Assembly: GCA_009914755.4 (NCBI GenBank)
Contig: CP086569.2
Coordinates: 21,664,001 to 21,728,000, forward strand
Direction: 5' to 3'
Length of the DNA: 64,000 bases
Source of the DNA: the human T2T-CHM13v2.0 reference genome, Homo sapiens
The number at the start of each line of letters is the position of its first letter. Within the stretch, counting starts at the first letter, position 1. Shown piece by piece: positions 53,311 through 56,300 of this stretch. The notes below the pieces were generated by a model. The model saw only the letters and a program-made list of their open reading frames with translations, searched no databases and had not been told where the DNA came from. A program made the position numbers and the translations under genes.

Positions 53311-56300
53311 AGGCTTTCATTCTTTTTTTTTATTATACTTTAATTTCTGGGGTACATGTGCAGAATGTGCAGGTTTGTTACATAGGTATGTATGTGCCAC
53401 GGTGGTTTGCTGAACCCATCAACCCGTCACCTACATTAGATATTTCTCCTAATGCTATACCTCCCCTAGCCCTCCACACCTGACAGGCTCCAGTGTGTGA
53501 TGATCACCTCCCTGTGTCCATGTGTTCTCATTGTTCAATTGCCATTTATGAGTGAGAACATGCAGTGTTTGGTTTTTTGTTCTTGTGTTAGTTTGCTGAG
53601 AATGATGGTTTCCAGCTTCATCCATGTCCCAGCAAAGGACATGAACTCATCCTTTTTTATGGCTGAATAGTATTTCATGGTGTATATGTGCCACATTTTC
53701 TTTATCCAGTCTATCATTGATGGGCATTTGGATTGGTTCCAAGTCTTTGCTATTGTGAATAGTGCTGCAGTAAACATATGTGTGCCTATGTCTTTATAGT
53801 AGAATGATTTATAATCCTTTGGGTGTATACCCAGTATTGGGATTGGTGGTTCAAATGGTATTTCCAGTTTTAGACTCTTGAGGAATCACCACGCTGTCTT
53901 CCACAATGGTTGAACTAATTTACACTCACACCAACAGTGTAAAAGTGTTCCTATTTCTCCACATCTTCTCCAGCACCTGTTTCCTGAATTTTTAATGATT
54001 GCCATTCTAACTGGTGTGAGATAGTATCTCATTATGGATTTGATTTACATTTCTCTGATGACCAGTGATGATGGGCATTGTTTCCCATGTTTCTTGGCTG
54101 AATAAATGTCTTCTTTTGAGAAGTGTCTGTTCATATCCTTTGCCTACTTTTTGATGGGGTTGTTTTATTCTTGTAAATTTGTTTAAGTTCTTTGTAGATT
54201 CTGGATATTAGCCCTTTGTCAGATGGATAGATTGCAAAATTTTTCTCCCATTCTGTAGGTTGCCTGTTCACTCTGATGATAGTTTCTCTTGCTGAGCACA
54301 AGCTTTTCAGTTTAATTAGATCACATTTTTTTTTTGACTTTTGACATTGTTTATTAGGTTCAAAAATGCTTCACAAAAGCCTAACAATGGTTCTGTGGAA
54401 ACCAGTACATCTGAGGCCCTTTCTGTTTTTCTGAGCAGGCACTGATTTGAAGATGGGCAGCATTTGCGGAACAATTCCCTCGCAGCTGTCAATGTAAGTG
54501 AGCATTCACCACTGGCCTAGAAAGGGCCTGTGAATAAACCGTATGGAAACGCTGGATTGGGCGGGGGGGTGCTGAGGAGCAAACCTTTATTAACCTCTTG
54601 GAGGGGAAATGGGTGGAAGCACCAGCCAGCAGAGGAAGGGGCGCTCCTGCCAGATTGCCATGGAGGGAGGTGTCCGCCTGAGGCCTCCTGTCCCGCGGGG
54701 TATGAGGATGCTTGGGGAGCATCTCTGGCGCCATGGCAAATGCGCCTCTTTCAACGGGATTTCCGGACGCGCTGCTTTGGATGTCGGGGTGTGCCTGAGC
54801 GCCTGCTGGGACTGCCATCATCTTCTCCGGCTCCAGCTCTGTGTTACTCGGGCAGGCGCTCTACAGAGCGCCGGGAGTCTGTCTCCTCCTGCAGAGGCCA
54901 ATGGCAGTGGAAGGTCTGGCGGCAGAACCAGAATTTTTCTTGGTTCAATTTTGCCTTTTGTTGTCATTGCTTTTGGTGTTTTAGTCATAAAGTTTTTGCC
55001 AATGCCTATGTCCTGGATGGTATTGCCTACGTTTTCTTCTAGGGTTTTTGAGTTTTAAAGTCTTATGTTTAAGTCTTTAATCCATTTGAGTTAATTTTTG
55101 TATAAGGTGTAAGGAAGGGATCTAGTTTCAGCTTTCTGCATATGACTAGCCAGTTTTCCCAACACCATTTATTAAATAGGGAAGACTTTCTCCATCGCTT
55201 GTTTTTGTCAGGTTTGTCAAAGATCAGATGGTTGTAGATGTGTGGTGCTATTTCTGAGGCCTCTGTTCTGTTCTGTTGGTCTTTGTATCTGTTTTGGAAC
55301 CAGTACCATTCTATTTTGGTTACGGTAGCCTTGTACTATAATTTGAAGTCAGGTAGCACCAAAGCCTCCAGATTTGTTCTTTTTGCTTAGGATTGTCTTG
55401 GCTATGGAGGCTGCCATTTGAACTTTGAATTAGTTTTTTTTCCAATTCTGTGAAGAAAGTCAATAGTAGTTTGATGGGGATTGCATTGAATCTATAAATT
55501 ACTTTGGGCAGTGTGATCATTTTTATGATATTGATTCTTCGTATCCTTGAGCATGGAATGTTTTTCCATTTGTTTGTGTCCTCTTTTATTTCCTTTAGCA
55601 GTGATTTGTAGTCCTTCTTGAAGAGGTCTTTCACATCCCTTGTAAGTTGGATTCCTAGATATTTTATTCCCTTTGAAGCAATTGTAAATGGGAGTTCACT
55701 CATGATTTGGCTCTCTGTGTGTTATTGGTGTATTGGAATGCTTGTGATTTTTGCACATTGATTTTCTATCCTCAGTCTTTGCTGAAGTTGCTCATCAGCT
55801 TAAGGAGATTTTGGGCTAAGAGGATGGGATTTTCTAAATAAACAATCATGTCATCTGCAAACAGAGACAATTTGACTTCCTCTTTTCCTAATTAAGTATC
55901 CTTTATTTCTTCCTCTTGCCTCATTGTCCTGGCCAGAACTTCCAATGTTATATTGAATAGCAGTGGTGAGACAGGGCATTCTTGTCTTGTGCCAGTTTTC
56001 AAAGGGAATGCTTCCAGTTTTTGCCCATTCAGTATAATATTGCCTGTGGGTTTGTCATAAATAGCTCTTATTATTTTGATATACATTTCATCAATACGTA
56101 GTTTATTGAGAATTTTTAGCATGAAGGGTTGTTGAATTTTGTCAAAGGCCTTTTCTGCATCTATTGAGATAATCATATGGTTTTTCTCATTGGATCAGTT
56201 TATGTGATTGATTACATTTATTGATTTGTGTGTGTTGAACCAGACTTGCATCCCAGGGATGAAGCCGACTTGATTGTGGTGGACAAGCTTTTTGATATGC

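What the first reader, a model, noticed from the sequence alone, without database searches (positions are those of the whole stretch)
54327..54933. Retroposed polyadenylated transcript fragment (GC-rich, AATAAA + poly-A) inside a full-length L1PA
A ~600-bp GC-rich block interrupts L1 ORF2 antisense sequence. On the minus strand it ends ...gaacctAATAAAcaatgtcaaaagtc + (A)10, the signature of an L1-mediated retrocopy of an mRNA/lncRNA 3' end (a 5'-truncated processed pseudogene). The source gene is unknown to me. The sense (minus) strand has a 110-aa ORF (54489-54821) but the fragment is more likely 3'UTR.
Basis: seen in the sequence. Interest (0 to 1): 0.5.

Follow-up and report, generated by a model that had tools for sequence, protein, structure and literature searches.

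The report
C12orf42 processed pseudogene inside an L1
The GC-rich block is an ordinary dead retrocopy: a spliced, polyadenylated, 5'-truncated mRNA of the sperm/testis gene C12orf42, pasted into an older full-length L1 element on what is probably the human Y chromosome.

Summary
A 619-bp block (refined limits 54326-54944, minus strand; GC 0.55, against about 0.36 in the flanks) splits an otherwise colinear full-length antisense L1. On the minus strand it ends AATAAA, then 14 nt, then A10.

The retrocopy reading is right, and the parent gene is now identified as C12orf42 (Pfam DUF4607). The conceptual translation matches profile positions 112-264 of 264, E = 2.6e-71.

The guess that the fragment is mostly 3'UTR is wrong:
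- About 456 nt are the C-terminal 151 codons of the coding sequence.
- Only 153 nt are 3'UTR.

Evidence for an RNA intermediate:
- Homology to genomic C12orf42 in a bat, a whale and a third mammal stops exactly where the A-run starts. Those genomes continue TCTATCGC.
- At the 5' end, the intron's polypyrimidine tract and AG are replaced by 16 nt. In frame these read TKKNS|G, like the end of the upstream exon (SKGDS|G in a full-length homologue).

No target-site duplication exists. The L1 flanks abut with a 1-bp loss.

Chimpanzee and gorilla carry the same insertion at the same junctions, so it predates their split from the human lineage. NCBI models it there as "C12orf42-like". In this window the longer frame is broken.

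Verdict: an ordinary processed pseudogene of low interest.

The parts
53323..54325 (-). 3' part of the host L1 (end of ORF2, 3'UTR and the L1's own A-tail, seen as a T-run at about 53314-53322 on the + strand).
   Evidence: Colinear with another L1 in the window: 53323-54343 matches 31620-32654 at 84%. The L1 3' end reads ...attatactttaatttctggggtacatgtg on the + strand.
54326..54335 (-). Poly(A) tail of the retrocopy: A10 in this window, and about A9-A10 in chimpanzee and gorilla. The three A's nearest the L1 (54326-54328) may be the L1's own AAA from CAAATGG.
   Evidence: Genomic C12orf42 in bat, whale and the Logan contig continues TCTATCGC... at this point, so the A-run is not templated by the parent.
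54336..54488 (-). C12orf42 3'UTR (153 nt), with AATAAA at 54350-54355 lying 14 nt before the tail.
   Evidence: Blastn to the bat, Logan-contig and whale loci runs to the last base before the A-run.
54489..54928 (-). Coding part of the C12orf42 last exon.
- The intact 110-aa ORF is 54489-54821 (ATGATG...TGA).
- Upstream codons are in the same frame.
- A nonsense codon specific to this window lies at 54861-54863 (TAG, where chimpanzee and gorilla have CAG).
- A 9-bp in-frame deletion lies between 54773 and 54772.
   Evidence: Pfam DUF4607: E = 8e-54 for the ORF and 2.6e-71 for the full frame. Protein hits are named C12orf42 homologues. Three-species alignment.
54929..54944 (-). Sixteen nt, ACCAAGAAAAATTCTG (T K K N S G-), derived from the end of the penultimate coding exon. 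The exon-exon junction is 54929|54928, and 54944 is the 5' truncation point of the retrocopy.
   Evidence: - In genomic C12orf42 of bat, whale and the Logan contig, this position is a polypyrimidine tract plus AG.
- The upstream exon, about 3.2-3.4 kb away in those genomes, ends ...AATTCCAAGG(C/G)AGATTCTG...|GT(A/G)AGT.
- The full-length homologue P0025 reads ...SKGDS|GPVLRPFTAIGLC.
- The Pfam alignment starts at residue 1 of the frame.
54945..60072 (-). 5' part of the host L1 (rest of ORF2, ORF1 and 5'UTR). The 5' end at about 60070 was recognised from the canonical L1 start ...GGAGCCAAGATGGCCGAATAGGAACAGCTCC, recalled from memory.
   Evidence: 54945-55200 and 55202-59157 are colinear with the L1 at 32639-37469. 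GC rises to 0.51-0.55 over 59100-60000, as expected of an L1 5'UTR. The 5' end sequence was read.
59250..59342 (-). Counterpart of 'exon 1' of the chimpanzee and gorilla NCBI gene models. It is sense-strand L1 5'UTR sequence followed by the donor GAT|GTAAGA (59244-59249). In this window it has ACG instead of the chimpanzee ATG, and an in-frame stop.
   Evidence: tblastn of P0001 and the three-species alignment. Residues 2-41 of P0001 hit only ORFs with no C12orf42-like sequence, which resemble L1 5'UTR-encoded ORFs; I assigned them to the L1 5'UTR from memory of the consensus.

Best explanation
This is a processed pseudogene, made as follows. An mRNA of the autosomal, testis/sperm-expressed gene C12orf42 was spliced and polyadenylated. 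L1 machinery then reverse-transcribed it at a nick in the A/T-rich site ...AAAATTGAC/AAATGGG... of an older full-length L1PA-type element.

Reverse transcription or integration stopped 16 nt upstream of the last exon-exon junction. The copy therefore carries the last 151 codons, the 153-nt 3'UTR and a short poly(A) tail. It has no promoter and lacks the N-terminal part of the protein upstream of DUF4607 profile position 112. Integration produced no target-site duplication and lost one base.

The event predates the human-chimpanzee-gorilla split. The locus is most likely on the Y chromosome. In this human-lineage window the copy is non-functional.

**Shown:** parent identity, poly(A) at the parent's cleavage site, absence of the intron, the shared insertion site in three apes, and the lack of a TSD.

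**Inferred:** L1 endonuclease/TPRT as the enzyme route, the Y-chromosome location, and non-function.
For: - **Parent identity.** The ORF and the full frame match Pfam DUF4607 (positions 154-264 and 112-264 of 264; E = 8e-54 and 2.6e-71). The best protein hits are named C12orf42 or C12orf42-like and end in the same ...NAHLH*.
- **Poly(A).** DNA homology to genomic C12orf42 of a bat (79%), a Logan-contig mammal (82%) and a whale (79%) covers the insert and stops exactly at the first A of the tail. Those genomes read AATAAATAATGTCAAAAGTC|TCTATCGC.
- **Splicing.** In those genomes the last exon is preceded by ...ttttttgcttctag| or ...ctttgcctttcag|. The window instead has ACCAAGAAAAATTCTG| in frame (TKKNS|G). 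This resembles the end of the upstream exon (NSKADS.., NSKGDS..) and the spliced protein P0025...SKGDS|GPVLRP....
- **Host continuity.** The L1 is colinear across the block. Empty-site sequences come from six other L1 copies.
- **Relative age.** The insert keeps a parent-like CpG o/e of 0.51 (parent exons 0.50-0.51), while the host L1 is at 0.08-0.13. The L1 is therefore much older than the insertion.
- **Shared ancestry.** The junctions are identical in chimpanzee and gorilla. Flanking divergence is 1.56% to chimpanzee and 2.33% to gorilla.
- **Human parent locus.** Human C12orf42 lies distal to ASCL1 near the 12q23.2 breakpoint of a t(12;14)(q23.2;q32.3) (PMC5765657). It is a testis-elevated protein found in sperm (bioRxiv 10.1101/315739).
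Against: - There is no target-site duplication, which most L1-mediated insertions have.
- The inferred nick site, 5'-CATTT/G on the bottom strand, is only a partial match to the L1 endonuclease preference TTTT/A.
- The exon-junction argument rests on non-primate genomes. The 16-nt stretch matches their upstream exon at only 12 of 16 positions, which is not significant on its own. The primate parent gene could not be retrieved: no human or other primate autosomal C12orf42 appeared in either protein search.
Confidence: 0.93

Rival explanations
1. Same retrocopy, different route. The C12orf42 cDNA was captured at a pre-existing DNA break in the L1 (endonuclease-independent insertion or break repair) rather than by canonical endonuclease-initiated target-primed reverse transcription.
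For: There is no TSD, and one base is lost at the target. The target is only a weak match to TTTT/A.
Against: A poly(A) tail is present and abuts an AAA/TTT stretch of the target, as expected for priming on a T-rich nick. From general knowledge, endonuclease-independent insertions are often 3'-truncated and lack tails, and small deletions or blunt joins also occur in ordinary TPRT.
Confidence: 0.15
2. The retrocopy is, or was, a functional Y-linked chimeric retrogene. It would be transcribed from the host L1's 5'UTR and spliced (GAT|GTAAGA ... CCAAG|AAAAAT) into the C12orf42 frame, as in the NCBI models of chimpanzee (185 aa) and gorilla (188 aa). The copy in this window would then be a recently disabled version.
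For: - Intact annotated ORFs XP_054533182 and XP_055233125, named C12orf42-like.
- All three indels in the coding part are multiples of three.
- dN/dS is about 0.4-0.5.
- The parent is a sperm/testis gene, the class that tends to acquire Y copies.
Against: - dN/dS does not differ significantly from 1 (p = 0.23, or about 0.06-0.1 after correcting one codon by hand).
- The coding part varies at the same overall rate as the neutral flanks: 3.3% variable sites against a flank tree length of about 3.2%.
- The start codons of the two models are lineage-specific and not homologous. The chimpanzee ATG is a chimpanzee-only ACG>ATG change. The gorilla frame needs a gorilla-only 13-bp deletion.
- The acceptor is preceded by a purine-rich tract, ACAACAAAAGGCAAAATTGAACCAAG.
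- In this window, exon 1 has no ATG in that frame and carries a stop, and the retrocopy carries a TAG.
- No expression data were available.
Confidence: 0.08
3. DNA-level (segmental or transposition) copy of the C12orf42 last exon rather than an RNA-mediated copy.
For: Nearly the whole block corresponds to a single exon, which is one uninterrupted stretch in the bat locus. An intronless state alone therefore proves little.
Against: Homology ends exactly at the polyadenylation cleavage site and is followed by an untemplated A-run. The intron's polypyrimidine tract and AG are absent and replaced by upstream-exon-like, in-frame sequence.
Confidence: 0.02
4. The block entered a progenitor L1 elsewhere, and the composite L1 plus insert then retrotransposed to this site as one unit.
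For: The insert and the L1 are in the same orientation.
Against: The insert disrupts ORF2. The CpG content of the insert (o/e 0.51) is far from that of the L1 around it (0.08-0.13), including its GC-rich 5'UTR, so the two parts have very different ages in the genome. No second copy exists in the window or in the ape loci.
Confidence: 0.02

Closest known systems
L1-mediated processed pseudogenes (retrocopies) of mammalian mRNAs
   Same: It is spliced, 5'-truncated and polyadenylated 14 nt after AATAAA. It sits at an A/T-rich target, lacks a promoter, and its reading frame is decaying.
   Different: It lacks the usual 7-20-bp target-site duplication; one base was lost instead. It landed inside another L1, in the same orientation.
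C12orf42 (human 12q23.2; mouse 1700113H08Rik), Pfam PF15380 / DUF4607
   Same: The frame matches DUF4607 positions 112-264 of 264. The C-terminus ...RPVVNAHLH* and the 3'UTR with its AATAAA are conserved against bat, whale and other mammalian loci.
   Different: Only the last 151 codons are present. The copy carries a nonsense codon and a 9-bp deletion, and sits in an L1 on a different chromosome.
NCBI gene models 'uncharacterized protein C12orf42-like' of chimpanzee (XP_054533182.1) and gorilla (XP_055233125.1)
   Same: They are the orthologous locus. The flanks are 97.6% and 96.8% identical over 13.9-19.6 kb, and the L1/insert junctions are identical.
   Different: Those models have open 185- and 188-aa frames that start in the L1 5'UTR. 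In this window the same frame has no start codon and two stops. Only the internal 110-aa ORF remains.
CDY, the Y-linked retrogene derived from autosomal CDYL (comparison from general knowledge)
   Same: It is an RNA-mediated copy of an autosomal testis-expressed gene that arrived on the primate Y.
   Different: CDY is full length, amplified, expressed and functional. This copy is truncated, single and apparently decaying.

Membership tests
Processed pseudogene / L1-mediated retrocopy | Introns of the parent gene are absent (an exon-exon junction is present) | tested here: met
   The last-exon boundary is at 54929|54928. The intron's polypyrimidine tract and AG seen in the bat, whale and Logan loci are absent. 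They are replaced by 16 nt that continue the frame (TKKNS|G), like the upstream exon and the spliced protein P0025.
Processed pseudogene / L1-mediated retrocopy | Untemplated poly(A) tail at the parent's polyadenylation site, downstream of AATAAA | tested here: met
   AATAAA is followed by 14 nt and then A10. Three parent genomes continue TCTATCGC at that point.
Processed pseudogene / L1-mediated retrocopy | Flanking target-site duplication | tested here: not met
   The empty site in six L1 copies reads AAAATTGAcaaatggGATC. Here the flanks abut with loss of the C. No direct repeat of 7 nt or more flanks the insert.
Processed pseudogene / L1-mediated retrocopy | Insertion at an L1 endonuclease-type target (5'-TTTT/A on the primed strand) | tested here: inconclusive
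   The inferred nick is 5'-CCCATTT/GTCAATTTT. It is T-rich followed by a purine, but it is not the consensus.
Processed pseudogene / L1-mediated retrocopy | An intron-containing, expressed parent gene exists elsewhere | tested here: met
   In the Logan contig and the whale, genomic C12orf42 has the two exons 3.2-3.4 kb apart. Human C12orf42 at 12q23.2 and its sperm protein are documented in the literature. The human locus itself could not be aligned here.
C12orf42 / DUF4607 (PF15380) | Score above the Pfam gathering threshold (22 bits) | tested here: met
   183.3 bits for the ORF and 240.7 bits for the 151-aa frame.
Functional retrogene | Open reading frame, transcription and purifying selection | tested here: inconclusive
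   - In this window the long frame is closed (TAG at 54861-54863, no start in exon 1); a 110-aa ORF stays open.
- dN/dS is about 0.4-0.5 and not significant.
- Transcription cannot be tested with these tools.
PRORY (CYorf17), a Y-linked 'orphan' gene; considered from memory as a possible identity | Published PRORY RT-PCR primers should lie in the locus | tested here: not met
   The primers CCTCCTGCCTCTCCATAT and TCATCCATGACCACAGACG (supplement of PMC7944136) have no match in the window with up to 2 mismatches. The reported PRORY variant p.Arg125Cys (PMC4833433) also does not fit any frame here.

The most novel reading that the evidence does not exclude
African-ape Y chromosomes carry a chimeric retrogene. 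An old L1's 5'UTR would supply the promoter, the first exon and a splice donor. The C-terminal DUF4607 half of the sperm protein C12orf42 would supply the rest. The frame was opened independently in chimpanzee (a new ATG) and gorilla (a 13-bp deletion), and it is closed in the human lineage. This would be a case of lineage-specific gain and loss of a Y-linked male germline gene.
Probability: 0.07. Interest if true: 0.45.

Novelty: already known. Interest (0 to 1): 0.15.

Why it matters
It matters little beyond correct annotation. The work names the parent of an otherwise anonymous GC-rich block and shows that the 110-aa ORF is a relic of real coding sequence, not a new gene or UTR. It also dates the insertion to before the human-chimpanzee-gorilla split.

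The one mildly interesting thread concerns the orthologous copies in chimpanzee and gorilla. They are annotated as protein-coding with an L1-derived first exon, whereas this copy is disabled. If those models were expressed, this would be a small example of Y-linked retrogene turnover in apes.

Tried and rejected
1. **PRORY/CYorf17.** I suspected from memory that the locus might be the Y-linked 'proline-rich' gene PRORY. Its published primers are absent from the window, and p.Arg125 fits no frame here. No paper in the library mentions both PRORY and C12orf42. Rejected.

2. **Rfam.** The only hit is a sub-threshold snoR26 match at 54300-54383 (27.6 bits against a gathering score of 47, E = 0.037). 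Nothing reaches gathering score in the whole window. I read it as a chance match.

3. **Exact look-ups of the 110-aa ORF.** Neither the gene-position index nor the protein collection holds it.

4. **Peptide search in the literature.** No paper was found for six peptides from the ORF.

5. **Primate parent gene.** Neither protein search returned a human or other primate autosomal C12orf42. The best non-Y hit is a squirrel protein at 70%. Retrocopy-to-parent divergence and a direct primate exon-junction check were therefore impossible.

6. **16-mer test of the upstream-exon remnant.** Against the Logan contig, the true site has 4 mismatches and a chance A-rich site has 2. The nucleotide match alone is not significant. 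The junction argument rests on the missing intron signals, frame continuity and the protein-level comparison.

7. **Plus-strand ORFs of 170 and 149 aa over the block.** I treated these as antisense by-products of GC-rich sequence and did not search them.

8. **TSD search.** It found only trivial A-rich 6-7-mers.
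Full report
**Observation.**
The + strand of 53800-55500 shows antisense L1 ORF2 sequence up to ...gtttaattagatcaca (54325). A run of ten T follows, then about 600 bp of unrelated GC-rich sequence, and L1 sequence resumes at ttcaattttgcc... (54945). GC in 200-bp windows rises from about 0.35-0.38 to 0.50-0.635 across 54400-54999. On the minus strand the block ends GAACCTAATAAACAATGTCAAAAGTC followed by A10. The 110-aa ORF at 54489-54821 is present.

**Parent gene.**
The 110-aa ORF hits Pfam PF15380 (DUF4607) at E = 8.1e-54, profile positions 154-264 of 264. In the 5.8-billion-protein search it hits ten proteins, all carrying PF15380. The six of them that carry a source name are mostly called 'C12orf42 homolog' or 'C12orf42-like' (also mouse-type 1700113H08Rik). 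The best is a chimpanzee 'C12orf42-like' protein (P0001, 95% identity). Squirrel, bat, whale, sheep, hamster and cheetah follow at 55-72%. Nine of the ten end ...NAHLH or ...NAPLH at the stop, as the window ORF does.

The frame continues upstream of the ATG to the very edge of the block: [44 protein letters not shown].... This 151-residue conceptual translation matches DUF4607 positions 112-264 from its first residue, E = 2.6e-71. So about 456 nt of the block are C-terminal coding sequence, and only 153 nt (54336-54488) are 3'UTR.

**RNA intermediate: the 3' end.**
Three genomic C12orf42 loci were fetched: a bat chromosome (L002), a 7.3-kb Logan contig of an unnamed mammal (L003) and a false killer whale chromosome (L004). 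Blastn of the insert gives 79%, 82% and 79% identity over 591-608 nt. In all three the alignment ends at the last base before the A-run. All three genomes read AATAAATAATGTC(A/G)AAAGTC|TCTATCGC(C/A)GCCAAAAATG there. The A10 is therefore untemplated and sits at the conserved cleavage site, 14 nt after AATAAA.

**RNA intermediate: the 5' end.**
In the three genomes the last exon is preceded by a polypyrimidine tract and AG:
- bat: cctcctcttttttgcttctag|GTCCTGCTGCG
- Logan contig: cctgccctttgcctttcag|GTCCCGCTCCG
- whale: cttttctttgccttccag|GTCTTACTCTG

.

The window has no such tract. Between the L1 sequence AAAATTGA and the exon start GTTCTGCCGCC lie 16 nt, ACCAAGAAAAATTCTG, which keep the frame open (T K K N S G).

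In the Logan contig and the whale the preceding coding exon lies 3.2-3.4 kb upstream. It ends ...AATTCCAAGG(C/G)AGATTCTGTC...CTG|GT(A/G)AGT, encoding NSKADSVSPG and NSKGDSVPSG. A full-length 389-aa homologue from the exhaustive representative search reads ...GKSKGDS|GPVLRPFTAIGLC, the same arrangement as [18 protein letters not shown] here.

The 16 nt are therefore best read as the tail of the penultimate exon, which means the template was spliced. At nucleotide level the match to the distant species is only 12 of 16 and is not significant alone. The primate parent could not be obtained. I rate this point as moderately strong rather than decisive.

**Host element and target site.**
The L1 flanks are colinear with another L1 in the window: 53323-54343 with 31620-32654, 54945-55200 with 32639-32894, and 55202-59157 with 33514-37469. 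The L1 3' end with its own tail is at about 53323. From my memory of the consensus, the canonical L1 5' start (...GCCAAGATGGCCGAATAGGAACAGCTCC) is recognisable at about 60020-60070. The host is thus a full-length element of about 6.1 kb on the minus strand, with an L1PA-type 3' end. No RepeatMasker or Dfam run was available to name the subfamily.

Six other L1 copies in the window and the ape loci read AAAATTGAcaaat(g/c/t)gGATCT(A/G)AT at the homologous site. In the filled site the flanks are AAAATTGA|ACCAAG... and ...GTC-An|TGGGATC (TGTGATC in this window). There is no target-site duplication, and the C of GACAAATGG is missing. A scripted search found no flanking direct repeat beyond trivial A-rich 6-7-mers.

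The tail abuts the L1's AAA. This fits priming of reverse transcription on the T-run of the bottom strand (5'-CATTT/G), a partial match to the L1 endonuclease preference. An endonuclease-independent route cannot be excluded.

**Age and genomic location.**
The chimpanzee protein P0001 is encoded on CM054458.2 (36.4 Mb) of GCA_028858775.3. The gorilla cluster-mate P0011 is on CM054581.2 (67.4 Mb) of GCA_028885475.2. Window 44439-64000 aligns to the chimpanzee locus over 19.6 kb with 1.56% substitutions. It aligns to the gorilla locus over 13.9 kb with 2.33%. Chimpanzee against gorilla gives 2.5%. The window therefore belongs to the human lineage.

The record sizes fall within the 30-68 Mb reported for ape Y chromosomes (PMC11168930), and 36.4 Mb is smaller than any ape autosome I know of. 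A Y location is therefore likely but not verified.

All three species share the insert with identical junctions, so the insertion predates their common ancestor. The insert's CpG o/e (0.51; gorilla 0.51, chimpanzee 0.39) equals that of the parent exon in bat and the Logan contig (0.50-0.51). The host L1, including its GC-rich 5'UTR, is at 0.08-0.13. The L1 is thus much older than the insertion, which argues against the pair having arrived together.

**Coding status.**
NCBI models the orthologous loci as 'uncharacterized protein C12orf42-like', 185 aa in chimpanzee and 188 aa in gorilla. A first exon in the sense strand of the host L1 5'UTR (window equivalent 59342-59250, donor GAT|GTAAGA) is spliced to ...CCAAG|AAAAATTCTGG at the edge of the retrocopy. 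Residues 2-41 of the chimpanzee model hit only ORFs that carry no C12orf42-like sequence and resemble L1 5'UTR-encoded ORFs; that assignment rests on my memory of the L1 consensus.

The start codons are not homologous. The chimpanzee ATG is a chimpanzee-only ACG>ATG change. The gorilla frame depends on a gorilla-only 13-bp deletion. The window has ACG plus a stop. The window also carries CAG>TAG at 54861-54863 and a 9-bp deletion. Without splicing, the frame is closed by a TGA at the L1 junction in all three species.

Among the three species the coding part shows 8 non-synonymous changes (including the nonsense) and 7 synonymous ones. The script reported 9 and 6 because it counted codon 39 twice as non-synonymous. 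dN/dS is about 0.4-0.5 and not significant (p = 0.23 as scripted). Overall variability is 3.3%, the same as the flanks. All three indels are multiples of three, but two lie in a tandem repeat or a C-run.

I conclude that neutral decay is the simplest reading. A functional chimeric retrogene in chimpanzee and gorilla remains a low-probability alternative.

**Comparison with known things.**
This is a textbook processed pseudogene apart from the missing TSD. The parent, C12orf42, lies distal to ASCL1 near a 12q23.2 translocation breakpoint (PMC5765657). It encodes a testis-elevated protein detected in human sperm (bioRxiv 10.1101/315739).

I tested and rejected the idea that the locus is the Y-linked 'orphan' gene PRORY. 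Because the orthologous ape loci are already annotated as C12orf42-like in public records, the homology is not new.

**Verdict.**
Two points are corrected: the block is mostly coding sequence rather than UTR, and there is no TSD. The parent gene is identified. Interest is low.

Noticed in passing
window 59220-59400 (minus); L001 9943-10123; L005 9968-10135: The first exons of the chimpanzee and gorilla 'C12orf42-like' models lie in the host L1 5'UTR and use non-homologous starts. The chimpanzee ATG is a chimpanzee-only ACG>ATG change. The gorilla frame needs a gorilla-only 13-bp deletion. The window has neither, and has a stop.
   Followed up: partly
window 53323-60072 versus 54336-54944: CpG o/e is 0.08-0.13 across the host L1, even in its GC-rich 5'UTR. 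It is 0.51 in the insert, the same as in the parent exon of bat and the Logan contig. The chimpanzee copy has dropped to 0.39.
   Followed up: yes
window 3792-5833, 20840-22173, 31596-38180, 60290-64000: The window is very L1-dense. At least four further L1 copies or fragments lie on both strands, and the 31.6-38.2 kb element is itself interrupted near 32894/33506. This fits a sex-chromosome origin, but it was not analysed further.
   Followed up: no
window 54300-54383 (minus): A sub-threshold Rfam match to plant-type C/D snoRNA snoR26 spans the L1/poly(A)/3'UTR junction (27.6 bits against a gathering score of 47, E = 0.037). I take it to be a chance match.
   Followed up: no
window 54530-55058 (+): Long antisense ORFs of 170 aa (GTG start) and 149 aa (ATG start) run over the insert into the L1. 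They are probably a by-product of GC-rich sequence and were not searched.
   Followed up: no
window 26865-26931 and 46315-46405: Simple repeats: (ATAC)17, and an (AT)22/(AC)n microsatellite.
   Followed up: no
protein searches: No human or other primate autosomal C12orf42 protein was returned by either search, although such proteins should be about 90% identical to the query. The best non-Y hit was a squirrel protein at 70%. This limited dating and the exon-junction test.
   Followed up: no
L002 121-170: In the bat, the penultimate-exon homologue ends ...GATTCTGTCCCACCTG|CCAAGT, without a GT donor at the position used in the whale and the Logan contig. The bat protein model is a single-exon 156-aa ORF. 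The upstream exon may be decaying, or spliced differently, in that species.
   Followed up: no
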